A stretch of 64,000 nt of DNA from Candidatus Omnitrophota bacterium (GCA_028712175.1 JAQTQQ010000004.1:2180-66179); one strand, 5' to 3'. Shown: positions 40,160-62,745, numbered from the stretch's first letter. Notes: generated by a model not told the origin, from the sequence alone. A program made the numbers and translations.

Positions 40160-42721
40160 TTAAATAATCGGATCCATGGTCAATGCCGGATGGGCCACTT
40201 TATGCAAAAAGACTAAAAGCTCTTCGGAGCTTGTCGCAACCGCCTCATCGGCAATCTTATCCAATAAGTCCGGCTGATTAATTTCGTTTGCCCTTTCCTT
40301 TAGCTTATCGCCTAAAATGTTTTTTAATTCTTTAGGCATCCAGACGACCCTGGCCAACCCGCCTTCAGCTGAAATAAATTTCCTGCTTAAAATATATAAT
40401 TTGCCCACCCCTAAAAATCCGGGCGTCTGCACGCCCCCCCCGACTGAACCGGCTAAAGTAGTAAAGCTCATTCCTGAAGGAGTCATGCCGGAATAATCCC
40501 GATGCACTATCATTACCCCGTTAGCTTCAGGGATAATCGCCACTATGCATTCAAAGCATCCGCAGGAAGACTGCGGCCCGTCCATCATCGAATAGATACT
40601 GACTGCCTCAATAGTATGATTGGATTTCTGCTCAACAAACTCGTTTACATTATCCCATTGGCCGAGCCTTGCATCCAAAAGATTTCCTTTGAGAACAGGC
40701 TGATTCGGCCCGGTAGGCGTAATTTCAAAAGAAGCCTTGGCGTCAAGCCAGGAATATGCACCACATAACCCTAAACGCTCCGGAGTAACAATACAAACAT
40801 GATTCGGCGCAAAAGACTGACAGAGCAGGCAAGAATAAAAAGTATCCACGCTTTCATCAGTCATTCCGGCAATCCTCTCATCACGCTCATTATATGCTTT
40901 TTGCGCAGCCAGCGAAAGCTTCTGGACATCCTCTTGGTTCGTATAAAGCTTAACCTGAATTTTATCCACAATAGCGCTATATTCCTGATGCAACATAGCA
41001 TGCAAAATTACCCCTAGATGCCTAAGCCGAAAACCTTTATTAAAAGCATCTTTTGAAATCCGAATCCAAACCATATCGCGTTGCCCCATATGCATAAGCC
41101 CCATTGCATAATTTATAAAACGATGGATCTGGCGCTCTAATATCGGTTCAAAATCTCTTTGCATTTTGCGCCCAAAAACACTGACCATAATTGCCAAAGG
41201 CAGTGATTTAGCATCTTGGCTTAATTGATCTATATCACGGCCGATTAATTCCACTCTTCCGTCGCTAACATTTGCCTCATCCTCAATGGACAAAAGTTCG
41301 ACAGCCGCGCTTGCCTTGCCTCCGAACTCAACAGCCAGCTGCTCCTTACGCACACGCTCACCTTCAAATGCTGCGGCATAAGGCACAGGGACTGCAACTT
41401 CAGAGATCTTAGCTTTAATTCCCCGCGTCAGGATACACTTAGAAGGAAGCTTCTCGTAATCTTTTTCCGTAACCAAAGCTTCAAATAATGTGGTATCTAT
41501 TTTAGCTAACTGCGGAAGATCTAAATCGGAGATTATTGGCAGTCCAAAAGCAAGGGCGCCTAAACCGGTCGCTACCAAAAGCTCATCAACATGGCTAAGC
41601 AGGAGCACAAACGCAGGCACCCGGTCGCGGACATAATCCGCAGCCTTTTCCCATTGACCCGGCTTAATCCCTCCGTAAATCAATGGCGCGCGTACTGCAA
41701 AATTTATGGCGTAAATAGCAGAAAGATAATCATCGCCTAAAGGAACAATATAATTTTCTAACCCTATCCCTATACCCTTATTTTCAAGTTGCTGCCTAAA
41801 ACTTCTGTCACCCGCACTTCCTGCCAGCAGACTGACAATGCCCTTAGACTGAAAACTACGGATGAGATACAGGGCCGTTTTTTCATCTTTAGCCGGGCCC
41901 AAAATTACAGCAATCCCGGATATCCTGCCGTCAACTAATTGCAGGCCGAGTGAACGCAGAATTTTATCCGGAAGAAAACCCAGCCCTTCTTTAGGGTGCT
42001 GGTGATTTAATACCGCTAACGCGGCTAAGATCTCCTCGCAAATCAAAGTGCCAATACCTTTATTTAGCATGCCGGCTAAAGAATTAACCGTAAGCCCGCC
42101 GGAAGCTGCCTTATTATTAACTAAACCTTCAGCTTGATAAAAAACATCCGAGCAATCTTTAAGTGTTTTTACTTCAACATTCAGAAGCGCATTAATTAAA
42201 GGCAGGTAATAATTTGTTTCGCCAAATTCAATCTTGGCACTTTCGCCATTTTGGGCTATTGCGCTATCCAAAGCTTGCCGCGTAAAGAGCAATGCGCTAT
42301 CGGCGCCCTTTGTCCCAAGCTCTATTAATAATTTATCCAAACCTTCGCTCACAGTTTTCTTTTTAAGGTTACCGGCTATTTCTTTATCAATAAAAATAAC
42401 CAGGCAGGCGCCGATGGCCTTACCATCCTTTAATTTAACCGCCTCTGCCCTGCCTTCGCCGACAATCTCCTTGATCTGACTATTGATAACTTCAATATCT
42501 TCGGGCAATTCTGCGGTAATTTGGTCTTTGATTAAAAGCTTAAGGCCGACTTTGTATTTTTCATGAATTAATCTAGCTAAGTCAATTGCTGACTCCGCCG
42601 GACCCTCAATACAAACAGTATCATTGATAAGATAATCCTCTAACTTTTTAAAATCATCATCGGAACTTATTAAAATTACCCCTTTTTTCCTGGCCCCGGG
42701 TATCTGCGGTAAATTCCCCAT
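40160..42721 (-). CDS. acsB: Acetyl-CoA synthase (CODH/ACS A-cluster subunit AcsB/CdhC-type) with a roughly 110-aa N-terminal extension
   Basis: A-cluster ligand pattern CxxCx8Cx9C followed by the bridging C-G-C (SSCGCFE). Similarity to Moorella-type AcsB runs along the full length. Confidence 0.85.
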   Translation of the reverse strand: MGNLPQIPGARKKGVILISSDDDFKKLEDYLINDTVCIEGPAESAIDLARLIHEKYKVGLKLLIKDQITAELPEDIEVINSQIKEIVGEGRAEAVKLKDGKAIGACLVIFIDKEIAGNLKKKTVSEGLDKLLIELGTKGADSALLFTRQALDSAIAQNGESAKIEFGETNYYLPLINALLNVEVKTLKDCSDVFYQAEGLVNNKAASGGLTVNSLAGMLNKGIGTLICEEILAALAVLNHQHPKEGLGFLPDKILRSLGLQLVDGRISGIAVILGPAKDEKTALYLIRSFQSKGIVSLLAGSAGDRSFRQQLENKGIGIGLENYIVPLGDDYLSAIYAINFAVRAPLIYGGIKPGQWEKAADYVRDRVPAFVLLLSHVDELLVATGLGALAFGLPIISDLDLPQLAKIDTTLFEALVTEKDYEKLPSKCILTRGIKAKISEVAVPVPYAAAFEGERVRKEQLAVEFGGKASAAVELLSIEDEANVSDGRVELIGRDIDQLSQDAKSLPLAIMVSVFGRKMQRDFEPILERQIHRFINYAMGLMHMGQRDMVWIRISKDAFNKGFRLRHLGVILHAMLHQEYSAIVDKIQVKLYTNQEDVQKLSLAAQKAYNERDERIAGMTDESVDTFYSCLLCQSFAPNHVCIVTPERLGLCGAYSWLDAKASFEITPTGPNQPVLKGNLLDARLGQWDNVNEFVEQKSNHTIEAVSIYSMMDGPQSSCGCFECIVAIIPEANGVMIVHRDYSGMTPSGMSFTTLAGSVGGGVQTPGFLGVGKLYILSRKFISAEGGLARVVWMPKELKNILGDKLKERANEINQPDLLDKIADEAVATSSEELLVFLHKVAHPALTMDPII

Positions 42722-43591
42722 TTATAACCCGCTTGCCTCTAGAACCGCAGGCACCAGTTTATTCCAGCCGATTGGCATAATATGAACCCCTTGGCAATAA
42801 GGTTTTAATTTCTTAATCAAAGAGCTGGCAATTTCTATAGAAGTAGCTGCCTTATCCTTACTCTCCTGCATTTCTTTAATTAAATTATCCGGGACAAAAA
42901 TTCCTGCTACATTTTTATTCATAAAATTAGCCATAGCCGAAGATTTTAATAAAACAATACCTGCTATAACCGGAATTTTAATATGCTTAATCTTAGAAAT
43001 AAAATTATCAAAAATTTTTTCGTCAAAAATAGCCTGTGTTTGAAAAAATTCAGCCCCTGCGGCTATTTTTTTCTCCATTTTCATAATCTGAGGTTCCAGC
43101 GGCTCTGAATTAGGATTGACTACTGCGCCAAGGCAGAATTTAGGGAATATGCCCGCCAATTTATTTCCGTTCATGTCCTGGCCGGTTTCTAGTTTTCTGG
43201 CAACTTGGAGTAACTGAACCGAGTCCAAATCGAAAACCGGTTTTGCCTGCGGATGGTCTCCTTTAATCGGATGGTCGCCGGTAGTAATCAATATATTTTC
43301 CAATCCTAATGCGGCGGCAGAAAGCAAATCTGACTGCAGGGCAAGCCGGTTGCGGTCACGGCAGGTAAGCTGATAAATCGATTCAAAACCTTTTTGCTTA
43401 AGCAGATAACTCACCGCCAAAGACCCTAAACGCATTACTGAACTTTGTAAATCCGTAACGTTAATCGCATCTACTTTTGCGCGAATAAGCTCAGCCTCAT
43501 CCAGTAATTTCTTTACTTCGATCCCCTTATCCGGGCCGCTCTCCGAAGTAATTATAAATTTCCCTGACTGTATTTTTTCTTTAAATATCAT
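42722..43591 (-). CDS. metF: 5,10-methylenetetrahydrofolate reductase
   Basis: 289 aa MTHFR TIM barrel, adjacent to acsB. Confidence 0.8.
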   Translation of the reverse strand: MIFKEKIQSGKFIITSESGPDKGIEVKKLLDEAELIRAKVDAINVTDLQSSVMRLGSLAVSYLLKQKGFESIYQLTCRDRNRLALQSDLLSAAALGLENILITTGDHPIKGDHPQAKPVFDLDSVQLLQVARKLETGQDMNGNKLAGIFPKFCLGAVVNPNSEPLEPQIMKMEKKIAAGAEFFQTQAIFDEKIFDNFISKIKHIKIPVIAGIVLLKSSAMANFMNKNVAGIFVPDNLIKEMQESKDKAATSIEIASSLIKKLKPYCQGVHIMPIGWNKLVPAVLEASGL

Positions 43592-43605
43592 GTTTTCTTA
43601 GATTA

Positions 43606-43690
43606 AGGGTTGATAACCTATGGGCGATGGCCGAGAAAACCGAAGGTTTTATGAACTTTGCCTATAGTCTTTCGACCAATAAATTATTCC
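43606..43690. repeat. Modular intergenic palindromic repeat, copy E (inverted orientation)
   Basis: The reverse complement ggtcgaaagactatagg matches the copy B/C/D modules. There is also an aaaacc-gaa-ggtttt hairpin at 43636-43650. Confidence 0.55.
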
Positions 43691-43777
43691 AGAATTCCGG
43701 TTTCTATAGCAAACTTTGCGCTAACATCTAACAACCTAAATAACTATAAACAATCTTATTGACTCGAAACGTAAAGC

Positions 43778-44620
43778 TTATTGTTGAAGTTTAGCTGCCT
43801 CGACTAGGTTACGCATCAAGATAACTACCGTAAGCGGACCCACCCCTCCCGGAACAGGAGTGATATAGCTAGCGCGTTTTTCTGCTGCTTGAAACCCCAC
43901 ATCACCGACAATTTTACCGTTAGCACGATTTATTCCCACATCCACTACAATAGCGCCTTTCTTAATCCATTCACCATTAATTATACCGGCCTGTCCTACG
44001 GCCGAAATAAGCAAATCTGCTTTGCGCACATGCTCTTTCAGTTTTCCTGCTTTGCTTGTCCCGATATGACAAATAGTAACGGTGGCCAGTCTTTCCAATA
44101 AAAGCAAGGCAAGAGGCTTACCCACAATCTCGCTAGAACCAACCACTACCGTTTCTTTGCCGCACAAGTCTATGCCTGTTGAATTCAATAACTCCATTAC
44201 CGCGCTGGCCGTACAAGTAGCGGCCCGGTTATTGCCGAAAATCACATGCCCCATATTTAAAGGATGCATCCCTTCCGCATCCTTTTGCGCAGAAATTACT
44301 TCGCTTATTTTTCTATAATCCATCTGGGGACCAAGCGGCGTTTGCACAATAATTCCGTTAACAGTTTTATCTGCATTAAGCTTGTTGATGAGATCTATTA
44401 ATACATTCTCGGTAATATTGTCGTTTAACTTATACAGCCTATAGGCTATGCCGAGGCTTGCTGCGGTTTTTTCCTGAGAAGATACATAGCTGGCTGCGCC
44501 AAGATTATTCCCGACTAATATGCTGGCAAGCACCGGGGCCTGTTTTAAATTTTGTACGCTAAGCCTGATCGCTTCTTTTATTTTTTCAGCTACGGGTTTA
44601 CCTTCTAGTAATTTTGCCAA
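43778..44620 (-). CDS. folD: Bifunctional methylene-THF dehydrogenase / methenyl-THF cyclohydrolase
   Basis: 280 aa FolD. Confidence 0.92.
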   Translation of the reverse strand: MAKLLEGKPVAEKIKEAIRLSVQNLKQAPVLASILVGNNLGAASYVSSQEKTAASLGIAYRLYKLNDNITENVLIDLINKLNADKTVNGIIVQTPLGPQMDYRKISEVISAQKDAEGMHPLNMGHVIFGNNRAATCTASAVMELLNSTGIDLCGKETVVVGSSEIVGKPLALLLLERLATVTICHIGTSKAGKLKEHVRKADLLISAVGQAGIINGEWIKKGAIVVDVGINRANGKIVGDVGFQAAEKRASYITPVPGGVGPLTVVILMRNLVEAAKLQQ

Positions 44621-45161
44621 AGCCGTCCTCCGTATTTTTACGGATCCTTTTAATAATCTTATCCATCTGATTCAATTCTTTTTTTACACCTTGAGCTAAT
44701 TTTTTATCTCCCAGGCTCTGCAAATTTACCTCTACATTAAAACGTGCACAAACAAAAGCCGATTCCAACAAAACTGCTGCTGCCGCGACATCGCTTAACA
44801 AAGCCACATTACCCTTCTTAAGCAAAGGCGGGCATAATTTAGCTGCCCGGGCACAAAGGCGGCTAAGCATAAATGGCACATCCATTGCCTTTCTGATATC
44901 CCTGCTCTGATAGGCCTCTACATCCAAATCCACCAAATCAAGGAAATCATTCTTTAATTGCTCGGATTCAACCAAAACATCTTTTAACTCGGCTTCAAAC
45001 ACAGCATACTTGAGCTTACCTAAGGTAAAGTTGACAACCATGCTGATAAGGCTTGCGGCCATTGCCGCGTTTAAAGCTGCGGCAGAACCGCCTCCGGGAG
45101 CAGGAAGCCTTGCAGAAAGATCATCCAGGTATTTAGCCAGACTTTGAGTTTTATATTTCAT
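44598..45161 (-). CDS. fchA: Methenyltetrahydrofolate cyclohydrolase / formiminotransferase-cyclodeaminase domain protein
   Basis: PAPGGGSAAAL motif of the cyclodeaminase/FchA family. Confidence 0.75.
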   Translation of the reverse strand: MKYKTQSLAKYLDDLSARLPAPGGGSAAALNAAMAASLISMVVNFTLGKLKYAVFEAELKDVLVESEQLKNDFLDLVDLDVEAYQSRDIRKAMDVPFMLSRLCARAAKLCPPLLKKGNVALLSDVAAAAVLLESAFVCARFNVEVNLQSLGDKKLAQGVKKELNQMDKIIKRIRKNTEDGFGKITRR

Positions 45162-57428: not shown

Positions 57429-57893
57429 TTATTTGTTTATTACTAATTGTGCTTTGTTTATCTTTGTTAACGGGATTTCTATAATTTTCTCGGCGCTTTG
57501 AATAAATACGCATGCCTCATCGGCTTTAGCGACTACCCCCTGCCATTGGCATTTACCGTCTATAAAATCATTAAGAAAAAATACTACTTCCCTGTTTAAA
57601 CACCTTAAAAAATCTTTTTTCCTCTTAAGAGAGCGATCTAACCCCGGAGACGAAACTTCAAGGATATATTCGCAAGGAATTATATTTTTTTCATCTAACA
57701 ATTCCCCAAGCCGGCGGTTAAGCATGGCGCATTCATCCAATGTTATGCCATCCTGCGGATAATCTGCCAAAATTCTTATAATTAATTTTCTTCCTTCCTG
57801 CCGGCAAATTAAATCAATAAGCTCAACATTGGCAGAAGCAAAACATGGAAGAATAAGATACTCCAATTCCTTGATCAAGCTTTCTTTAATCAA
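57429..57893 (-). CDS. rimP: Ribosome maturation factor RimP
   Basis: 154 aa in the conserved position upstream of nusA. Confidence 0.85.
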   Translation of the reverse strand: MIKESLIKELEYLILPCFASANVELIDLICRQEGRKLIIRILADYPQDGITLDECAMLNRRLGELLDEKNIIPCEYILEVSSPGLDRSLKRKKDFLRCLNREVVFFLNDFIDGKCQWQGVVAKADEACVFIQSAEKIIEIPLTKINKAQLVINK

Positions 57894-57906: not shown

Positions 57907-59136
57907 TTAAAAATCTTGGCTTCTATAACCGGATACCTTGTTCAGTTTATTATAAAAATTCGGCTTTACCTTTGCGGGTTTAAGGGCCCCGGACTCTTCA
58001 TCAAAAACGAAAATATCCTGCATAGAATATTCTTTTGATTTTAAGACCTCGCTAATCTGAGTGACCCGGCGCCTGCCATCCGGAAACCGGGTTAAATAAA
58101 CAACCAGGTCTACTGCCCCGATAATCTGCCTTCTTGCAACTTCACCGGACATATTACTGCTTCCCATCAAGGCCAGTATTTCAAGACGATCCAGGGCTTC
58201 CGAAGGAGAGCTGGCATGAAGAGTAGTCATTGATCCTTCATGGCCCGTGCTCATCGCCTGAATCATGTCTAAAACTTCCCCTCCTCTTACCTCGCCGGCA
58301 ATAATCCTGTCTGGACGCATATGCAAGGCATTTTTAAACAAATCTCTTATACTTATTTCACCCTTGCCCTCAATATTAAAAGGCCGCGTTTCCATTGGCA
58401 CAGTATGTTTTCTTGAAATGATTAACTCACGGGTATCCTCAATGGTAATCAATCTTTCATTCTCGGGAATAAAATCAATTAAGGCATTCAAAAATGTTGT
58501 TTTACCAGTGCCCGCGCCTCCGGAAATCAATATATTCATCCGGGAAATTACACATGCCTTCAAGAATTCGGCGGCGGAAGAATTAAGGCTGCCCAACTTA
58601 ATAAGGTCGTCCATACGCAAAACATTATAGGAAAATTTCCTGATAGTCAATAACGGGCCTATCCTCGAAACCGGACTCCTGACTATATTAACACGCGAAC
58701 CGTCATTAAGCCGGGCGTCTACAAAAGGCTCAAATTCCGAGATCCTTCTGCCTACGGGCGAAATTATCTTTTCGATAAGATAGGAGACCTGGGCTTCATC
58801 ATTAAAAGTAATATCAGTGAGTTCTAGATTACCTTTGCGCTCAACATAAACCTGATGCGGGCCATTAATCATAATCTCGGTAACCCCATCGTCTTTAAGC
58901 AATTTCTCAATCGGACCAAAACCAAGAAAATAAGTTATTACTTCGCTTAGCAGTTCTTCCTGCTCATGGCGGTTAAGACTAATTTTATTCTCCCTAATAA
59001 CCGACCTAAAGGCAGCCTCTATTGTACGTTGAAATAGCGAGCGGTCCTCTTTGCCATAATTGGCTCTAAGCTCATCCTCGCGGAATCTCAATTTATCCAA
59101 TATGTCTTCTTTTACAGCCTGCAGGTGTTCGTTCAT
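57907..59136 (-). CDS. CpaF/TadA-family (VirB11-like) secretion ATPase, paralog 1
   Basis: 409 aa with Walker A GGAGTGKTT and Asp/His boxes typical of type II/IV secretion ATPases. Confidence 0.8.
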   Translation of the reverse strand: MNEHLQAVKEDILDKLRFREDELRANYGKEDRSLFQRTIEAAFRSVIRENKISLNRHEQEELLSEVITYFLGFGPIEKLLKDDGVTEIMINGPHQVYVERKGNLELTDITFNDEAQVSYLIEKIISPVGRRISEFEPFVDARLNDGSRVNIVRSPVSRIGPLLTIRKFSYNVLRMDDLIKLGSLNSSAAEFLKACVISRMNILISGGAGTGKTTFLNALIDFIPENERLITIEDTRELIISRKHTVPMETRPFNIEGKGEISIRDLFKNALHMRPDRIIAGEVRGGEVLDMIQAMSTGHEGSMTTLHASSPSEALDRLEILALMGSSNMSGEVARRQIIGAVDLVVYLTRFPDGRRRVTQISEVLKSKEYSMQDIFVFDEESGALKPAKVKPNFYNKLNKVSGYRSQDF

Positions 59137-59152
59137 AGCCCTTCTTTCTGCC

Positions 59153-60400
59153 TTATACCTTAAAAGCTAATTGCGTAATTGATTTCAATACCTCATCCTT
59201 TGATAAGAGAAGGGTTTCTCTGGACTTACGAACCCTTAATTCTATCTTTTTTTCTTCAATACTTTTTTTACCAATTATAATACTAAGCGGTATACCGGTC
59301 AAATCGGCATCTTTGAATTTTACCCCGGCACGCTCATCCCTGTCATCCAGCAGCACTGAAAACCCCGCGGAACTAATCTGTTTATAAAAATCCTGCGCCT
59401 CTTGCATAACCGCATGGTTAGTTACATCTAAGGGCAGGATTATAATCTGGAAAGGGGCGATTTCCCTAGGCCAGATCATTCCGTCAGCATCGTTATTCTG
59501 CTCAATTACCGCAGAGATCAAACGCGAAACACCAATACCATAACAACCCATAACTACCGGCCTAAGCGCGCCGGTAACATCGGCAAAATTTGCCTGCATT
59601 GCCTGGCTGTATTTTAAACCCAGTTTAAATATATGGCCTACTTCAATAGTATTGACTTTATCCATCTTAGCCTGACATTTAGGGCAGGAATTTTCTTCCT
59701 TAAAAGCCAGGGCCAAATTGCATTTTGGGCAACACAACACCACATCTTCACCAAGCAGAGCAGAAACCATAAACTCATGAGAGAGTTTACCGCCCATCAC
59801 ACCGGAATCGGCTTCGGTAATCAAAGTTTCCAAACCGCATCTGGAAAATATCCTCTTATACGCTTCATACATTAATTGATAATTTTTATCCAAACCCGCT
59901 TCATCCTGATCAAAGCTGTATGCGTCCTTCATAATAAATTCACAAGCGCGGATCAGGCCAAAACGCGGACGGATCTCATCGCGAAACTTTGTCTGTATCT
60001 GGTATAGAATTAAAGGCAGCTGCCTGTAGCTTGATATATTATTTTTCACTAAATCCGTAATTATCTCTTCATGCGTAGGCCCAAGGGCAATCTCCCTTCC
60101 GCGGCGGTCTTTAAGCCTTAGCATTACTTCACCCAGGTCTTTGTCGCGCCCTGTTTTCTGCCAAAGTTCGAGCGGATGCAAAGCCGGTAAGAGTAATTCG
60201 CTTGCACCGCAGGCATTCATCTCCTGGCGGATGATCACCTGAATTCTTTCTAAAACCCTGAGACCTAAAGGAAGATAAGTATAAGCCCCTGCCATAAGCA
60301 TGCGGATAAATCCCGCACGCAGCAACAATTGATGGCTTTTCGACTCTGCCTCTTTAGGTATCTCTTTCAGTGTTGGAATAAACGCTTTTGACCAAAACAT
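59153..60400 (-). CDS. proS: Prolyl-tRNA synthetase, bacterial-type core without the INS editing domain and with a Cys4 mini-insertion
   Basis: 415 aa with class II motifs and a C-terminal anticodon-binding domain. Where INS would be there is CCPKC...CPKC. Confidence 0.85.
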   Translation of the reverse strand: MFWSKAFIPTLKEIPKEAESKSHQLLLRAGFIRMLMAGAYTYLPLGLRVLERIQVIIRQEMNACGASELLLPALHPLELWQKTGRDKDLGEVMLRLKDRRGREIALGPTHEEIITDLVKNNISSYRQLPLILYQIQTKFRDEIRPRFGLIRACEFIMKDAYSFDQDEAGLDKNYQLMYEAYKRIFSRCGLETLITEADSGVMGGKLSHEFMVSALLGEDVVLCCPKCNLALAFKEENSCPKCQAKMDKVNTIEVGHIFKLGLKYSQAMQANFADVTGALRPVVMGCYGIGVSRLISAVIEQNNDADGMIWPREIAPFQIIILPLDVTNHAVMQEAQDFYKQISSAGFSVLLDDRDERAGVKFKDADLTGIPLSIIIGKKSIEEKKIELRVRKSRETLLLSKDEVLKSITQLAFKV

Positions 60401-60401
60401 A

Positions 60402-61664
60402 TTAATCCTTTTTAAAAATTTCTTTAGATAAACTCACTCCTCTTTTTGCAAATAACGGATAGAATGCCGGCTCCACACCGGTAGTCTTAAAAACACCATA
60501 AACCTTGCCGTCTTCAACAACATTACTAATCTCGTAGTAGAAAATATCCTCCAGATTCACCCATCCGTTTTTTAACCCGTTGACCTGGGTAATGCGGGTA
60601 ATCTTACGCGATCCGTCAGCAAGCTGGTCCTGCTGGATAATTAAATGAAGGCTTGCCGCAATCTGGCGGTGTATTGCCTCTAAGGTTATCGGTATACCGG
60701 ACATAAGGATCATTGTCTCCAGGCGATGCAAAACCTCCGAAGGAGTATTTGCATGAATAACTGAAAGTGCCCCGTTGTGGCCCGAACACATTGCCTGAAG
60801 CATATCCAAGGCTTCTGCCCCTCTGATCTCCCCCAAAATAATCCTTTGAGGCCGCATACGCAGGGTATTGCGAAAAATATCCCTGATAGTAATTTCGCCT
60901 TTCCCTTCAATATTAGCCGGTTTTGTTTCAAGCCTGACGACATGGTCCTGGGCCAGGTGCAATTCAGCCGTATCTTCAATAGTAATCGTACGTTCGTCAT
61001 TACCGATATACCCGGAAAGTACCCCTACGGTAGTAGTTTTGCCGCTTCCGGTAGCGCCCGCAAAAACCATATTTACTTTGCCCTTAATGCATGCTATCAG
61101 AAAATCCGCCATCCTTCTGTCAAAAGTGCCTAATTCAATAAGGTCCTCGGCCTTTACGATTTTCTTAAGGAATTTACGTATGGTTATTGTCGGCCCGTCT
61201 AAAGCAAGCGGCGGGATAATGATGTTTACACGCGAACCATCCTGAAGGCAGACATCCGTATAGGGAGATAGCTCGTCAACCCTTCTCCTTGTAGGAGCCA
61301 AAATCTTCTGTACGATATACATCAGCTGCTGGTCGCTATCGAACTTAATATTTGTCAGTATTTTCTTTCCGTGCTTCTCTACATATACGTTCTGCGTACC
61401 ATTAATCATGATTTCCGTGATATCAGGGTCCATCATCAGCTTTTCAATGGGGCCGAACCCTGAAAATTCATCAACTAACTCGTTAATGATGTTATCTCTC
61501 TCTTCCTGCTTGAGCGGGCCGCGCGGCTGGCTTAAGATCCCCTCGAGGATATTCCTAACTACTGAAGCCACCTCAACTTTATCCCCGGAACTCTTTTGTA
61601 AAATATAGCTGTATTTTGCAATAAAATCTTCGCGTACCCTGCTTTTTAATGTCTGATGGCCCAT
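60402..61664 (-). CDS. CpaF/TadA-family (VirB11-like) secretion ATPase, paralog 2
   Basis: 420 aa with Walker A GATGSGKTT. It is clearly homologous to paralog 1 but divergent. Confidence 0.8.
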   Translation of the reverse strand: MGHQTLKSRVREDFIAKYSYILQKSSGDKVEVASVVRNILEGILSQPRGPLKQEERDNIINELVDEFSGFGPIEKLMMDPDITEIMINGTQNVYVEKHGKKILTNIKFDSDQQLMYIVQKILAPTRRRVDELSPYTDVCLQDGSRVNIIIPPLALDGPTITIRKFLKKIVKAEDLIELGTFDRRMADFLIACIKGKVNMVFAGATGSGKTTTVGVLSGYIGNDERTITIEDTAELHLAQDHVVRLETKPANIEGKGEITIRDIFRNTLRMRPQRIILGEIRGAEALDMLQAMCSGHNGALSVIHANTPSEVLHRLETMILMSGIPITLEAIHRQIAASLHLIIQQDQLADGSRKITRITQVNGLKNGWVNLEDIFYYEISNVVEDGKVYGVFKTTGVEPAFYPLFAKRGVSLSKEIFKKD

Positions 61665-61665
61665 A

Positions 61666-62745
61666 TCATCTCCTTAATTTAACCTCACGCAATAAAATAC
61701 GCACACAATCTTTTGCTAATACTTTCTTAACAATCTTGCCGCGCGAAAATAGCATTCCTTCGTTTTTACCGAAAGCAACTCCTAAATCTGCGCCTTTTGC
61801 TTCTTGCGGGCCGTTAACCACGCAACCCATTACCGCTATTTTCAAAGGATCTTGAGATCTTTTGCGTTTCCAGCCGGCCAACTCATTTTCTAATTCTTTA
61901 ACTATTTTTATCAGGTCTACTTCGCAGCGTCCGCAAGTAGGACAACTGATTATCTGAACGCCACAACTGTAGAAACCCAATGATTCCAATATGCATTTGG
62001 CTGCTTTTACCTCTTCTACCGGGTTATCCGTAAGGGACACCCTTATTGTATCACCAATACCCTCCAGTAGTAAAGCGCCTATTGCGACGCTAGACTTAAT
62101 AATACCGCTATAAGGGGAACCGGTGGCTGTAACCCCCAAGTGCAGCGGGTATTCGCAGAGGGATGCTATCTTACGATAGCTCTCAACTGTGTCCAAAACA
62201 TTGTTAGCTTTAAGCGAAATTACTATATTATTAAACTTTTGCTTCTCAATAAACTTCACATAACCTAAACAGGCAGCCACAAGCTTATCAGTCATTGAAG
62301 ATCTCTTCGGCCCTGTGTCTTTTACCGAACCGCTATTTAGCCCGATACGTAAAGGGATCTTGGCTGTTTTTAAGGCAGAGATTACCGCACTAATCTCTGC
62401 AGGCTTATCGATATTCCCCGGGTTCAGCCTAATCTTATCAACCCCGTTTTCGATAGCAGTAAGTGCCAAACGATAAGAAAAATGGATATCCGCAACCAAC
62501 GGAATTTTGGCATGAGCCTTAATTTTCTTTAAAGCCGCGCCGTCGGACGGGTCTTTAATCGCAAGGCGCACAATTTGACAACCTGCCTCTTCTAATTGTT
62601 TAATCTGCCTGAGAGTACCTTCAATATCCGAGGTTTTAGTCTTAGTCATTGATTGGATGGCAACCGGATTACCCGCTCCGATTAAGAGATTGCCTATTTT
62701 GATACCTCTGGATTTCCTTCTCTTTATTTCCATATTATTTGACAA
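61666..62745 (-). CDS. ispG: 4-hydroxy-3-methylbut-2-enyl diphosphate synthase
   Basis: 359 aa GcpE with C-terminal Fe-S cysteines (CPTCGRC). Confidence 0.92.
   Translation of the reverse strand: MSNNMEIKRRKSRGIKIGNLLIGAGNPVAIQSMTKTKTSDIEGTLRQIKQLEEAGCQIVRLAIKDPSDGAALKKIKAHAKIPLVADIHFSYRLALTAIENGVDKIRLNPGNIDKPAEISAVISALKTAKIPLRIGLNSGSVKDTGPKRSSMTDKLVAACLGYVKFIEKQKFNNIVISLKANNVLDTVESYRKIASLCEYPLHLGVTATGSPYSGIIKSSVAIGALLLEGIGDTIRVSLTDNPVEEVKAAKCILESLGFYSCGVQIISCPTCGRCEVDLIKIVKELENELAGWKRKRSQDPLKIAVMGCVVNGPQEAKGADLGVAFGKNEGMLFSRGKIVKKVLAKDCVRILLREVKLRR

What the first reader, a model, noticed from the sequence alone, without database searches (positions are those of the whole stretch)
57907..61664. 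Two divergent CpaF/TadA-type ATPase paralogs bracket proS inside the dxr-rseP-ispG ... rimP-nusA-infB housekeeping block, with no other pilus or secretion genes nearby
Both proteins (409 and 420 aa) have the full VirB11/CpaF ATPase signature, but they are clearly different from each other (GGAGTGKTT versus GATGSGKTT, with divergent N-domains). No TadB/TadC platform, pilin, prepilin peptidase or secretin genes were found in the window; the adjacent genes are proS and rimP/ispG. The pair may form a hetero-oligomeric motor whose partners are encoded elsewhere. Alternatively they may have been recruited to a non-pilus function.
Basis: partly seen in the sequence, partly recalled or inferred. Interest (0 to 1): 0.6.

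Follow-up and report, generated by a model that had tools for sequence, protein, structure and literature searches.

The report
Paired finger-deficient CpaF pilus ATPases
Two intact pilus-motor ATPase genes flank proS in a housekeeping operon across the phylum Omnitrophota, and each lacks a different one of the arginine fingers conserved in other CpaF motors, so they probably work as a pair rather than as ordinary single motors.

Summary
ORFs 57907-59136(-) (A, 409 aa) and 60402-61664(-) (B, 420 aa) are intact CpaF-family ATPases, 41% identical, on either side of proS. The 64-kb window holds no TadB/C or pilin genes.

The organism is an Omnitrophota MAG. ispG-B-proS-rimP-nusA-infB is conserved in about 28 Omnitrophota loci, spanning at least two classes. 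A lies between proS and rimP in only a subset of them.

Neither gene is decaying (dN/dS 0.10 for A, 0.03 for B). They are not recent duplicates.

- **B** groups with "CpaF2", the second ATPase gene of Omnitrophota Tad-like loci (RcpC-secretin-TadZ::CpaF-CpaF2-Flp pilins). It shares the derived residues V216, non-Arg217, A282 and V380 with CpaF2.
- **B** lacks the cis arginine finger R217 (Caulobacter numbering). It has C, S or A there.
- **A** has an invariant His (126 of 126 sequences) in place of the trans finger R347. That Arg is reported to be conserved in all type-IV-filament ATPases.
- All other catalytic residues are kept in both.

Best reading: these are specialised, cooperating motors of a dispersed multi-ATPase Tad-like machine, possibly a mixed A3B3 ring. 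No interaction has been shown, and no platform genes were located. This is a new variant of a known kind. Interest 0.6.

The parts
60402..61664 (-). ATPase B, 420 aa. A CpaF-family ATPase of the 'CpaF2 type', with class-I architecture (three-helix bundle, NTD, C-terminal ATPase domain). It is the syntenic insertion between ispG and proS seen across Omnitrophota.
   Evidence: PF00437 E 1e-54. Caulobacter CpaF E 9.9e-104, aligned over 30-403 of B and 108-482 of CpaF. The ispG-B-proS order recurs in about 28 loci. B clade monophyletic in 58/60 NJ bootstraps; B plus CpaF2 in 48/60. dN/dS 0.03 against L005, with dS saturated.
61248..61250 (-). Codon TGC = Cys139 of B, at the position of the cis (NTD) arginine finger R217 of Caulobacter CpaF.
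   Evidence: The B clade has C 56%, S 31%, A 9% here. Arg occupies this position in 99-100% of the A clade, the TadZ::CpaF fusions and 52 CpaFs from other phyla. CpaF2 has Cys in 4 of 4 sequences.
60858..60860 (-). Codon CGT = Arg269 of B, the retained trans arginine finger (R347 of Caulobacter CpaF).
   Evidence: Arg in 100% of 148 B-clade sequences.
61038..61040 (-). Walker A lysine K209 of B, within GATGSGKTT. The G282A change in this motif is shared with CpaF2.
59153..60400 (-). proS, a short 415-aa ProRS without the INS editing domain. It separates B from A and anchors the synteny.
   Evidence: NCBIfam PRK09194 at 592.7 bits, matched in two stretches that skip the insertion; PF00587 plus PF03129. 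ProRS is 400-459 aa in all Omnitrophota loci examined.
57907..59136 (-). ATPase A, 409 aa. A CpaF-family ATPase of the 'H347 type'. It is present between proS and rimP in only a subset of Omnitrophota.
   Evidence: PF00437 E 2.5e-52. Caulobacter CpaF E 1.9e-96. Orthologues are 57-89% identical and all named ones are Omnitrophota. A is present in the window, L002-5, L009, L028, L085-90. It is absent (proS abuts rimP) in L006, L008, L010-L027 and L030. dN/dS 0.10.
58321..58323 (-). Codon CAT = His272 of A, at the position of the trans arginine finger R347 of Caulobacter CpaF (motif NALHMRPDR).
   Evidence: His in 126 of 126 A-clade sequences and in the divergent L028 copy. Arg in 100% of B, CpaF2, TadZ::CpaF and 52 CpaFs from other phyla. 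PMC12019362 reports that R347 is conserved in all TFF ATPases. Only 5 of 166 CpaF modules among the nearest 150 cluster representatives have His here.
58693..58713 (-). Codons for Arg142 through Arg148 of A, the retained cis arginine fingers (R217 and R223).
   Evidence: R217 is 99% and R223 is 100% conserved in the A clade.
58501..58503 (-). Walker A lysine K212 of A, within GGAGTGKTT.
61666..62745 (-). ispG (GcpE), the upstream synteny anchor. Its stop codon is 1 nt from the start of B.
   Evidence: PF04551 E 1.8e-130. Synteny.
57429..57893 (-). rimP, the downstream synteny anchor, followed by nusA and infB.
   Evidence: PF02576 plus PF17384. Synteny.

Best explanation
A and B are specialised, non-redundant members of the CpaF/TadA family of hexameric type-IV-filament motor ATPases. 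They belong to a multi-ATPase Tad-like pilus system whose genes are scattered over the Omnitrophota chromosome.

B is the relocated version of 'CpaF2', the second ATPase gene of Omnitrophota Tad-like loci (RcpC-secretin-TadZ::CpaF-CpaF2-Flp pilins). It is found across the phylum. B has lost the cis arginine finger (Caulobacter R217; Cys139 here) and keeps the trans finger (R347; Arg269 here). A is a separate, patchily retained lineage. It keeps both cis fingers (Arg142, Arg148) and has an invariant His (His272) in place of the trans finger.

Favoured mechanism: A and B are neighbours in one mixed ring, for example A3B3.
- ATP sites on A would be complete: A's own R217 and R223, plus B's R347 in trans.
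- ATP sites on B would be doubly weakened: Cys at 217, plus A's His in trans.
- This gives alternating strong and weak sites. The pattern would match the predicted trimer-of-heterodimers TadB-TadC platform.

Embedding both genes in the tightly packed ispG-proS-rimP-nusA-infB string would give constitutive, stoichiometric co-expression.

Shown: family membership, intactness and purifying selection, synteny across the phylum, the finger pattern, and the kinship of B with CpaF2.

Inferred: the physical A-B contact, the ring stoichiometry, use of a TadB/C platform and Flp pilins encoded elsewhere, and co-transcription.
For: - Family: PF00437 matches, and Caulobacter CpaF is by far the best solved relative.
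- Catalytic residues: Walker A Lys and Thr, Asp-box Glu, Walker B Glu and both His-box His are 93-100% conserved in 126 A-clade and 148 B-clade sequences.
- Selection: dN/dS 0.10 for A and 0.03 for B.
- Synteny: ispG-B-proS-rimP occurs in about 28 Omnitrophota loci. These include members of Velamenicoccia and Gorgyraia.
- Pairing: every A-type gene seen has a second finger-deficient ATPase within one gene. B-proS-A occurs in 8 lineages, and L001 has A in tandem with a 449-aa ATPase that has Glu at 217 and keeps R347.
- Complementary fingers: in all 8 A/B pairs, B lacks R217 and keeps R347, while A keeps R217 and has H347.
- Geometry: in CpaF, R217 and R223 act on the ATP of their own chain, and R347 acts on the ATP of the adjacent chain (PMC12019362).
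- B-CpaF2 kinship: shared derived residues V216, non-Arg217, A282 and V380; NJ bootstrap 48/60; reciprocal best BLAST hits.
- Co-occurrence: chromosome CP070807.1 carries B at ispG-proS, plus a RcpC-secretin-TadZ::CpaF locus whose CpaF2 is truncated to 212 aa.
- Precedents: a Tad-like machine can be split over two loci, as in the M. xanthus Kil system (PMC8460266). Natural single polypeptides with 2-4 tandem CpaF modules exist, several with one finger-altered module, so mixed rings are physically plausible.
Against: - No interaction data exist, and no multimer model could be run.
- B keeps the catalytic Glu and all nucleotide-binding residues at 100%. That is not what a purely non-catalytic site would predict.
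- His at 347 is invariant in A rather than drifting, and it recurs in three unrelated CpaF lineages. It may therefore be a working alternative finger.
- A gained Arg at position 311, next to the Asp-box Glu (87% of the clade). B gained Arg at position 204 (95%). Either change might compensate in cis.
- B occurs without A next to it in most Omnitrophota loci. Any A-B ring is therefore not universal; in those genomes the partner would have to be TadZ::CpaF, or there is none.
- One divergent A-type representative (P0371) lacks both R217 and R347.
- CpaF works with C2 symmetry (2 ATP, 2 ADP, 2 apo), which does not map simply onto an A3B3 ring.
- No T2SSF gene was found near any Omnitrophota cpaF-type gene.
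- Seymour et al. report that most Gorgyraia, which do carry B, lack TadBC/RcpA.
Confidence: 0.4

Rival explanations
1. Division of labour between separate homohexamers. A6 and B6, together with TadZ::CpaF where it is present, would engage the same platform in turn. This would resemble PilB/PilT/PilU in type IVa pili, with one ring for extension and one for retraction or assistance. The finger changes would tune ATPase rate rather than mark a shared ring.
For: - All Omnitrophota CpaF types lack R387, a residue important for retraction in Caulobacter. R387 is Arg in 98% of CpaFs from other phyla, but L/S in A, Q/S/E in B, Q in CpaF2 and H in TadZ::CpaF (bioRxiv 10.64898/2026.02.24.707734). A single bifunctional motor may therefore not suffice.
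- A has deletions and only 33% consensus identity on the C-terminal (retraction) face, against 47% for B. This resembles the 'single-orientation' CpaFs described in that preprint.
- CpaF2 lacks the N-terminal three-helix bundle, as PilT lacks N1.
- B retains every catalytic residue.
- B is often present without A beside it.
- H347 recurs in other lineages, and the cis gains R311 (A) and R204 (B) could compensate.
Against: - The R347 equivalent is reported to be conserved in all TFF ATPases, and mutating it in PilT abolishes twitching. An A6 ring would lack it at every site.
- The strict complementarity of the losses in all 8 pairs, and the A-plus-X tandem in L001, are left as coincidence.
- Neither protein resembles PilT (TIGR01420 scores 58 and 49 bits against a cut-off of 319).
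Confidence: 0.3
2. Non-pilus function. One or both ATPases have been recruited to some other membrane or nucleic-acid process, such as secretion or anchoring of the giant proteins typical of Omnitrophota, DNA uptake, or a housekeeping role linked to the surrounding translation and isoprenoid genes. They would act without a TadB/C platform.
For: - B is fixed inside a housekeeping operon across the phylum, and no Tad gene lies within 10 kb in about 38 loci.
- B occurs in Gorgyraia (GWA2_41_15 = L015), a class reported to mostly lack TadBC/RcpA.
- The alpha5-loop8 motif predicted to contact the platform is only 41-45% consensus-like in A and B, against 67% in TadZ::CpaF and 73% in other phyla.
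- In L001 the A-type pair sits beside dnaX-recR.
- Giant-protein loci in Omnitrophota are often flanked by pilus or secretion genes (bioRxiv 10.64898/2026.06.07.730766).
Against: - Both proteins are far closer to bona fide CpaF than to any other branch of the superfamily.
- B's nearest relative is encoded inside Tad-like loci, next to secretin and Flp pilin genes.
- The pore loop is well conserved (75-82%).
- Gene position in a conserved ancient gene string (uppS-cdsA-dxr-rseP-proS-rimP-nusA-infB, known from Firmicutes; from my own knowledge) does not imply a shared function.
- Tad-like loci of Omnitrophota also lack nearby T2SSF genes, so the absence of neighbours carries little weight in this phylum.
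Confidence: 0.17
3. Redundant or decaying duplicates. One copy is the working Tad ATPase, and the other is a relic hitch-hiking in a highly expressed operon.
For: - A is dispensable in many lineages; proS abuts rimP in about 20 loci.
- Each protein has lost a conserved finger.
Against: - Both ORFs are full length, with dN/dS of 0.10 and 0.03.
- Catalytic motifs are about 100% conserved over more than 120 orthologues each.
- A and B are not sister lineages (0/60 bootstraps), so they are not a recent duplication.
- His347 is invariant, which indicates selection.
Confidence: 0.03

Closest known systems
Caulobacter crescentus CpaF / Aggregatibacter TadA (single bifunctional Tad pilus motor; PDB 8RJF, 8RKD, 9E24)
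   Same: - Same family and domain order: three-helix bundle, NTD, C-terminal ATPase domain. Like TadA, A and B have the class-I architecture with no N-terminal disordered region.
- E-values of 1e-96 and 1e-104, with 44-51% identity to CpaFs of many phyla.
- Walker A/B, Asp box, His box, pore-loop Glu and R223 are conserved.
   Different: - Two (or three) paralogues instead of one.
- A has His in place of the trans finger R347.
- B has Cys or Ser in place of the cis finger R217.
- Both lack R387, a residue important for retraction in Caulobacter.
- A has deletions on the C-terminal face.
- The genes are not next to tadZ, tadB or tadC; they sit in a housekeeping operon.
Omnitrophota Tad-like loci: rotamase lipoprotein-RcpC-secretin-TadZ::CpaF-CpaF2-HTH protein-Flp pilin array (L078, L094-96, L114-116)
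   Same: - B shares with CpaF2 the residues V216, C217, A282 (GATGSGKT) and V380, and the retained R347.
- They are reciprocal best hits outside their own clades.
- Both systems use two ATPases.
   Different: - B is only 45-50% identical to CpaF2.
- B has an N-terminal bundle region that CpaF2 (about 354 aa) lacks.
- B is encoded at ispG-proS.
- Its neighbour here is A (H347) rather than the canonical, finger-complete TadZ::CpaF fusion.
PilB / PilT / PilU of type IVa pili (separate extension and retraction ATPases; PilU depends on PilT)
   Same: Several paralogous PilT/VirB11-like hexameric ATPases serve one machine, and some are encoded away from the structural genes.
   Different: - A and B are CpaF-type, not PilT-type or PilB-type. 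TIGR01420 and TIGR02538 scores are far below their cut-offs.
- The AIRNLIRE motif was not tested.
- The R347-equivalent finger is kept in PilT.
Myxococcus xanthus Kil system (Tad-like, contact-dependent killing)
   Same: - A Tad-like machine whose parts are split between distant loci.
- Associated with a predatory lifestyle, as proposed for Velamenicoccia.
   Different: Kil uses a single FHA-fused ATPase, and its platform genes are known. No platform genes were located here.
Hetero-hexameric P-loop rings with alternating catalytic and non-catalytic sites (F1/V1 alpha3beta3; from my own knowledge)
   Same: The logic of complementary degeneration: one subunit donates the trans arginine finger to the neighbour's catalytic site, while its own site is weakened.
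   Different: - A different fold family.
- The arrangement here is only inferred from sequence.
- B retains its catalytic Glu.

Membership tests
CpaF/TadA family (PilT/VirB11-like type-IV-filament ATPases, Pfam T2SSE) | T2SSE domain above the Pfam gathering score | tested here: met
   A 178.2 bits and B 186.1 bits, against a cut-off of 24.9.
CpaF/TadA family (PilT/VirB11-like type-IV-filament ATPases, Pfam T2SSE) | Closer to CpaF than to FlaI, GspE2, VirB11, PilT or PilB | tested here: met
   PDB search: CpaF E 1e-96 and 1e-104; the next best (archaeal GspE2, FlaI, VirB11) score 1e-42 to 1e-25. A and B are 44-51% identical to CpaFs that sit in canonical tad loci of many phyla.
CpaF/TadA family (PilT/VirB11-like type-IV-filament ATPases, Pfam T2SSE) | Walker A, Asp box, Walker B and His box | tested here: met
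   K287, T288, E312, E357, H374 and H382 equivalents are 93-100% conserved in the A and B clades.
CpaF/TadA family (PilT/VirB11-like type-IV-filament ATPases, Pfam T2SSE) | Three arginine fingers: R217 and R223 in cis, R347 in trans | tested here: not met
   A has H at 347 (126 of 126). B has C, S or A at 217. R223 is kept in both.
CpaF/TadA family (PilT/VirB11-like type-IV-filament ATPases, Pfam T2SSE) | Encoded beside the tadB/tadC (T2SSF) platform genes and tadZ | tested here: not met
   No T2SSF hit in the window or in about 38 Omnitrophota loci. The same HMM finds TadB/C in 48 of 52 loci from other phyla.
CpaF/TadA family (PilT/VirB11-like type-IV-filament ATPases, Pfam T2SSE) | Drives assembly of a Flp-type pilus through a TadB/C platform | not testable with these tools
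   The rest of this genome could not be read. Only about 1.6 kb beyond one end of the window was retrieved.
Bifunctional (dual-orientation) CpaF as defined by Whitfield et al. 2026 | Conserved C-terminal face: P386/R387, beta13-beta14 turn, C-terminal motif | tested here: not met
   R387 is Ser in both window proteins (clade consensus L in A, Q in B). A has deletions at about Cc 441 and 452-462. The DG.R turn is kept in both.
NCBIfam TIGR03819 (TadA family conjugal transfer-associated ATPase) | Score above the curated cut-off of 373.15 bits | tested here: not met
   A 315.5 bits and B 280.9 bits. This is the best NCBIfam hit for both but is below the cut-off.
VirB11/TrbB, FlaI, PilT/PilU, GspE/PilB subfamilies | Score above the respective curated cut-offs | tested here: not met
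   All are below their cut-offs, for example VirB11 228/196 against 250, FlaI 196/182 against 550, and PilT 58/49 against 319.
Omnitrophota 'CpaF2-type' second Tad ATPase (defined in this work) | Derived residues V216, non-Arg217, A282 and V380 with R347 retained; groups with CpaF2 | tested here: met
   Applies to B only. Residues; NJ bootstrap 48/60; best BLAST hits. A does not qualify.
Hetero-hexameric ring ATPase | Direct A-B contact within one ring | not testable with these tools
   Only indirect evidence is available: complementary fingers, conserved pairing, and natural tandem CpaF fusions.

The most novel reading that the evidence does not exclude
A and B form an obligate mixed ring, for example A3B3. 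This would be the first hetero-hexameric PilT/VirB11-like motor. Complete ATP sites (on A, completed in trans by B's Arg269) would alternate with weakened regulatory sites (on B). The ring would be matched subunit-for-subunit to a (TadB-TadC)3 platform. It would have evolved by stepwise complementary loss of arginine fingers in a phylum of ultra-small, host-dependent bacteria.
Probability: 0.3. Interest if true: 0.8.

Novelty: new variant of a known kind. Interest (0 to 1): 0.6.

Why it matters
Tad pili are the textbook case of a type-IV filament driven by one bifunctional ATPase. How a single unidirectional motor reverses is an active question (three structural or mechanistic papers between 2024 and 2026).

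This phylum has replaced the single motor with two or three specialised CpaF paralogues.
- One paralogue lacks the cis finger.
- One replaces the trans finger, which is reported to be invariant across all type-IV-filament ATPases, with His.
- All of them lack the arginine (R387) whose loss blocks visible pilus retraction in Caulobacter.

That amounts to a natural mutagenesis experiment on the motor cycle. The prediction is cheap to test: express A, B and A+B in E. coli, then measure oligomeric state and ATPase activity with finger and Walker mutants.

It also bears on Omnitrophota biology. Tad-like machines are the proposed attachment or predation apparatus of these uncultured nanobacteria. 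The motor genes were not part of the published census, which counted TadB, TadC and RcpA. B is a near-universal, operon-embedded marker. It may show that the machine, or a derivative of it, is more widespread in the phylum than that census suggests.

Tried and rejected
1. Reading the rest of this genome for tadB/C, pilins or TadZ::CpaF. The contig is 241 kb in one source, but only window-encoded proteins can be looked up. The two end genes yielded about 1.6 kb of new sequence and no pilus genes.

2. Using the per-genome tables of Seymour et al. to score Tad genes against B. The stored supplement is truncated to two genomes for KO data. Only the taxonomy of four reference MAGs was usable.

3. 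Looking for divergent TadB/C in Omnitrophota Tad-like loci.
- The 336- and 337-aa proteins after CpaF2 in L115 have only an N-terminal signal-like hydrophobic segment and no further membrane spans, so they are not platform proteins.
- The conserved ~480-aa HTH protein has no membrane spans.
- No T2SSF signal appeared even with HMMER filters switched off.

4. A and B as a recent tandem-type duplication: rejected. An exclusive A+B clade appears in 0 of 60 bootstraps, and each is as close to CpaFs of other phyla as to the other.

5. Pseudogene or decay: rejected.

6. PINA-like Holliday-junction ATPase, suggested by ruvB, recR and dnaX nearby: rejected. The scores are only 22-32 bits against a cut-off of 800.

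7. Promoter and terminator scan. Nothing exceeded the shuffled expectation, so operon status rests on the gene spacing alone.

8. Asking whether B differs between genomes with and without A beside it. It does not differ at positions 204, 217 or 347.

9. Representative-library search. It gave no taxonomy or genomic context. It was useful only for estimating how rare H347 is and for revealing the tandem CpaF fusions.

10. No structure prediction was run. Only monomers can be modelled and coordinates are not returned, so it could not test the ring hypothesis.

Full report
**1. What is in the window**

The two ORFs exist exactly as described. 57907-59136(-) encodes 409 aa ('A') and 60402-61664(-) encodes 420 aa ('B'). 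Both match Pfam T2SSE (E 2.5e-52 and 1e-54). Their best solved relative by a wide margin is the Caulobacter Tad motor CpaF (E 1.9e-96 and 9.9e-104). Archaeal GspE2, FlaI and VirB11 follow at 1e-42 to 1e-25. No NCBIfam subfamily cut-off is reached; the best hit is TIGR03819 at 315 and 281 bits against a cut-off of 373. A and B are 41% identical.

The gene order on the minus strand is rseP, ispG, B, proS, A, rimP, nusA, infB, trpS, scpA, ruvB. Spacers from rseP through rimP are -11 to +17 nt. A consensus scan found no excess of promoter-like or terminator-like sites.

The other ORFs of at least 100 aa in the window were translated, and all are housekeeping genes. A T2SSF (TadB/C) HMM found nothing in any frame of the window. 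I built that HMM from the ORFs that follow cpaF in other phyla and verified it against Pfam. A motif scan found no Flp-like or prepilin-like ORF.

**2. Whose genome it is, and how general the arrangement is**

A is 100% identical to a protein that NCBI names 'CpaF family protein [Candidatus Omnitrophica bacterium]'. All named relatives of A (57-89% identity) and B (63-90% identity) are Omnitrophota.

A scan of one genome per species returned about 25 Omnitrophota loci with a B orthologue (48-87% identity). In every one long enough to judge, the order is rseP-ispG-B-proS-rimP-nusA-infB. According to the taxonomy table of Seymour et al. 2023, these include three Velamenicoccia (UBA6253, UBA6233, Gygaella obscura) and one Gorgyraia (GWA2_41_15). 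B is thus a deep syntenic fixture across the phylum.

A is different. It lies between proS and rimP in the window, L002-5, L009, L028 and L085-90. In L006, L008, L010-L027 and L030, proS abuts rimP (gaps of -40 to +71 nt, 122 nt in L027), even in close relatives of the window organism. In one 1.19-Mb contig (L001) an A-type gene (62% identity) sits elsewhere. There it is in tandem with a very divergent 449-aa T2SSE ATPase ('X') and is followed by dnaX-recR.

**3. Neither copy is decaying, and they are not recent duplicates**

Against the L005 orthologues, dN/dS is 0.10 for A and 0.03 for B, with dS saturated for B.

In a neighbour-joining tree of 135 sequences, support over 60 bootstrap replicates was as follows:

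| Grouping | Bootstraps |
|---|---|
| B clade monophyletic | 58/60 |
| A and B as exclusive sisters | 0/60 |

Each of A and B is 44-51% identical to CpaFs from Chloroflexota, Bacillota, Verrucomicrobiota and other phyla. That is more than their identity to each other.

**4. Where B comes from**

Some Omnitrophota carry a Tad-like locus with the order: rotamase-type lipoprotein, RcpC/CpaB, secretin, a 722-743-aa TadZ::CpaF fusion, a short second ATPase of about 354 aa ('CpaF2'), a conserved ~480-aa HTH protein, an array of Flp-like pilin genes, and TadE/G (L078, L094-96, L115).

CpaF2 is the sister of the B clade in 48 of 60 bootstraps. Its best hits outside its own group are B proteins.

More tellingly, B and CpaF2 share substitutions at positions that are 100% invariant in 52 CpaFs from other phyla:
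- A216V
- R217C
- G282A, which turns GGTGSGKT into GATGSGKT
- T380V

Other Tad-like loci lack CpaF2 (L040, L073, L116). In the complete chromosome CP070807.1, the locus-encoded CpaF2 is cut to 212 aa and ends at the His box. The same chromosome carries an intact B at ispG-proS (L026 and L114). I conclude that B is a CpaF2-type ATPase that has moved into the housekeeping operon. By descent it is therefore a component of the Tad-like system.

**5. The unexpected part: complementary arginine-finger changes**

I aligned 126 A-clade sequences, 148 B-clade sequences, 4 CpaF2, 5 TadZ::CpaF and 52 CpaFs from other phyla to residues 108-482 of Caulobacter CpaF. That sequence was recovered from the PDB alignment.

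The catalytic residues K287, T288, E312, E357, H374 and H382 are 93-100% conserved in every group. Two of the three arginine fingers are not:

| Position (Caulobacter numbering) | A clade | B clade | CpaF2 | TadZ::CpaF | Other phyla |
|---|---|---|---|---|---|
| R217 (cis finger) | Arg 99% | C 56%, S 31%, A 9% (Cys139, window 61248-61250) | Cys 100% | Arg 100% | Arg 100% |
| R347 (trans finger) | His 126/126 (His272, window 58321-58323; also the divergent L028 copy) | Arg 100% | Arg 100% | Arg 100% | Arg 100% |

According to Yen et al. 2025 (PMC12019362), R217 and R223 on the NTD act on the ATP bound by their own chain. R347 on helix alpha-9 reaches the gamma-phosphate of the ATP bound by the adjacent chain. 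The same paper reports that R347 or its equivalent is conserved in all type-IV-filament ATPases, and that mutating the equivalent residue in PilT abolishes twitching.

Three further observations fit this pattern.
- In all eight B-proS-A loci, B lacks R217 and keeps R347, while A keeps R217 and has H347.
- The partner X in L001 has Glu at 217 and keeps R347.
- His at 347 is rare. It occurs in 5 of 166 CpaF modules in the 150 nearest 50%-identity cluster representatives.

**6. Mechanistic reading**

If A and B alternate in one ring, every site on A is complete: its own R142 and R148, plus B's R269 in trans. Every site on B is doubly weakened: C139, plus A's H272.

This arrangement also explains the order of events. 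CpaF2 and B lost the cis finger first, while the partner TadZ::CpaF remained fully canonical. The trans finger of the neighbour that feeds this weakened site was then free to change, as seen in A. B's own trans finger, which feeds the good site, stays at 100% Arg.

The predicted TadB/TadC platform is a trimer of heterodimers in which each subunit touches one CpaF monomer. An A3B3 ring would match that arrangement.

Natural polypeptides with two to four tandem CpaF modules exist, and several have one finger-altered or degenerate module. Mixed CpaF rings are therefore physically plausible.

I rate this reading at 0.4 overall. The strict obligate A3B3 form is rated 0.3.

**7. Why not higher**

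- Nothing shows that A and B touch.
- B keeps its catalytic Glu and all nucleotide-binding residues. That suits an active enzyme better than a regulatory site.
- His347 is invariant in A rather than drifting. It has also arisen in three unrelated CpaF lineages (P0413, P0431, P0467), so it may be a functional alternative.
- A has gained Arg next to the Asp-box Glu (A311R, 87% of the clade). B has gained G204R (95%). Either might compensate in cis.
- One divergent A-type representative lacks both fingers (P0371).
- B is usually found without A beside it.
- CpaF cycles with C2 symmetry, which does not map simply onto an A3B3 ring.

The main rival (0.3) is a division of labour between separate homohexamers, as with PilB/PilT/PilU.
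- All Omnitrophota CpaF types lack R387. Loss of this residue blocks visible pilus retraction in Caulobacter, and it is Arg in 98% of CpaFs from other phyla.
- A has deletions on the C-terminal 'retraction' face and only 33% consensus identity there. B has 47%.
- CpaF2 lacks the N-terminal bundle, as PilT lacks N1.

**8. Is it a pilus motor at all?**

No T2SSF gene lies within 10 kb of any Omnitrophota cpaF-type gene, including those inside Tad-like loci. The corresponding figure for other phyla is 48 of 52. In this phylum, gene neighbourhood therefore says little either way.

The M. xanthus Kil machine shows that a Tad-like apparatus can be split over distant loci. Seymour et al. found two or three of TadB, TadC and RcpA in 74 of 116 Velamenicoccia species. 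They were missing in some Profunditerraquicolaceae, which is the family of the window's nearest named relative, and in most Gorgyraia. B is nevertheless present in a Gorgyraia genome (L015).

The alpha5-loop8 motif predicted to contact the platform is less conserved in A and B (41-45% consensus identity) than in TadZ::CpaF (67%). I therefore keep a non-pilus or derived function at 0.17. I could not read the rest of this genome to settle the question.

**9. Comparison with what is known, and verdict**

The proteins are members of the CpaF/TadA family by domain content, by closest relatives and by catalytic motifs. They fail three features of the canonical single Tad motor: the full set of arginine fingers, the R387 C-terminal face, and linkage to tadZ/tadB/tadC.

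I found no paper that mentions the ispG-cpaF-proS synteny, two-ATPase Tad-like loci, or finger-deficient CpaFs. The published Omnitrophota analyses counted TadB, TadC and RcpA and did not analyse the ATPases.

This is a new variant of a known kind, not a new kind of system. It would interest specialists because it gives a natural, testable dissection of the Tad motor cycle and a near-universal marker gene in an uncultured phylum. Interest 0.6.

Noticed in passing
L114 12236-12871 (CP070807.1, about 1.44 Mb) and L026: In one complete Omnitrophota chromosome, the CpaF2 gene of the Tad-like locus is truncated to 212 aa and ends right after the His box. An intact B-type paralogue sits at ispG-proS in the same chromosome. 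This looks like functional replacement caught in progress.
   Followed up: partly
L078 12555-14000; L094 11607-13052; L096 3159-4598; L115 15560-16999: A conserved soluble protein of about 480 aa sits between CpaF2 and the Flp pilin array in every Omnitrophota Tad-like locus. It has an N-terminal HTH (only a weak PF01498 hit) and no membrane spans. Its role is unknown, and no T2SSF gene lies nearby.
   Followed up: partly
P0361-P0369, P0372, P0373, P0376, P0492 (representative library): Single polypeptides carry two to four tandem CpaF modules; P0361, for example, has three complete modules in 1156 aa. In several, one module has altered fingers or catalytic residues: P0362 module 2 has H347, P0368 module 2 has Q223 and Y347, and P0376 module 2 has lost the Walker Lys and Walker B Glu. 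Their organisms are unknown.
   Followed up: partly
window 59153-60400 (-), and proS in all Omnitrophota loci: ProRS is short (400-459 aa). It matches the bacterial-type model in two stretches that skip the INS editing domain, so cis-editing of Ala-tRNAPro would be absent.
   Followed up: no
L001 11270-12619: A very divergent 449-aa T2SSE ATPase sits in tandem with an A-type gene and upstream of dnaX-recR. It is 33-36% identical to A and B. It has a pore-loop deletion, has lost the first His-box His, has Glu at the R217 position and keeps R347.
   Followed up: partly
window 40160-45161 (-): An 853-aa AcsB-like (acetyl-CoA synthase) protein with a long N-terminal extension lies next to metF-like, folD and fchA-like genes. 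This is a Wood-Ljungdahl methyl-branch cluster inside the housekeeping stretch.
   Followed up: no
L116 12266-13344: In a Tad-like locus without CpaF2, the TadZ::CpaF gene is followed by two small proteins with prepilin-type N-termini (GLTIVEVLL and GAFTISEALI) and by a 1074-aa protein. L114 has an 1809-aa protein at the equivalent place.
   Followed up: no
precomputed Pfam column: The newer Pfam family PF27713 ('UCP018868') hits A-type proteins and TadZ::CpaF fusions, and hits B-type proteins only weakly. It is absent from the local Pfam copy, so I could not establish what region it covers.
   Followed up: no
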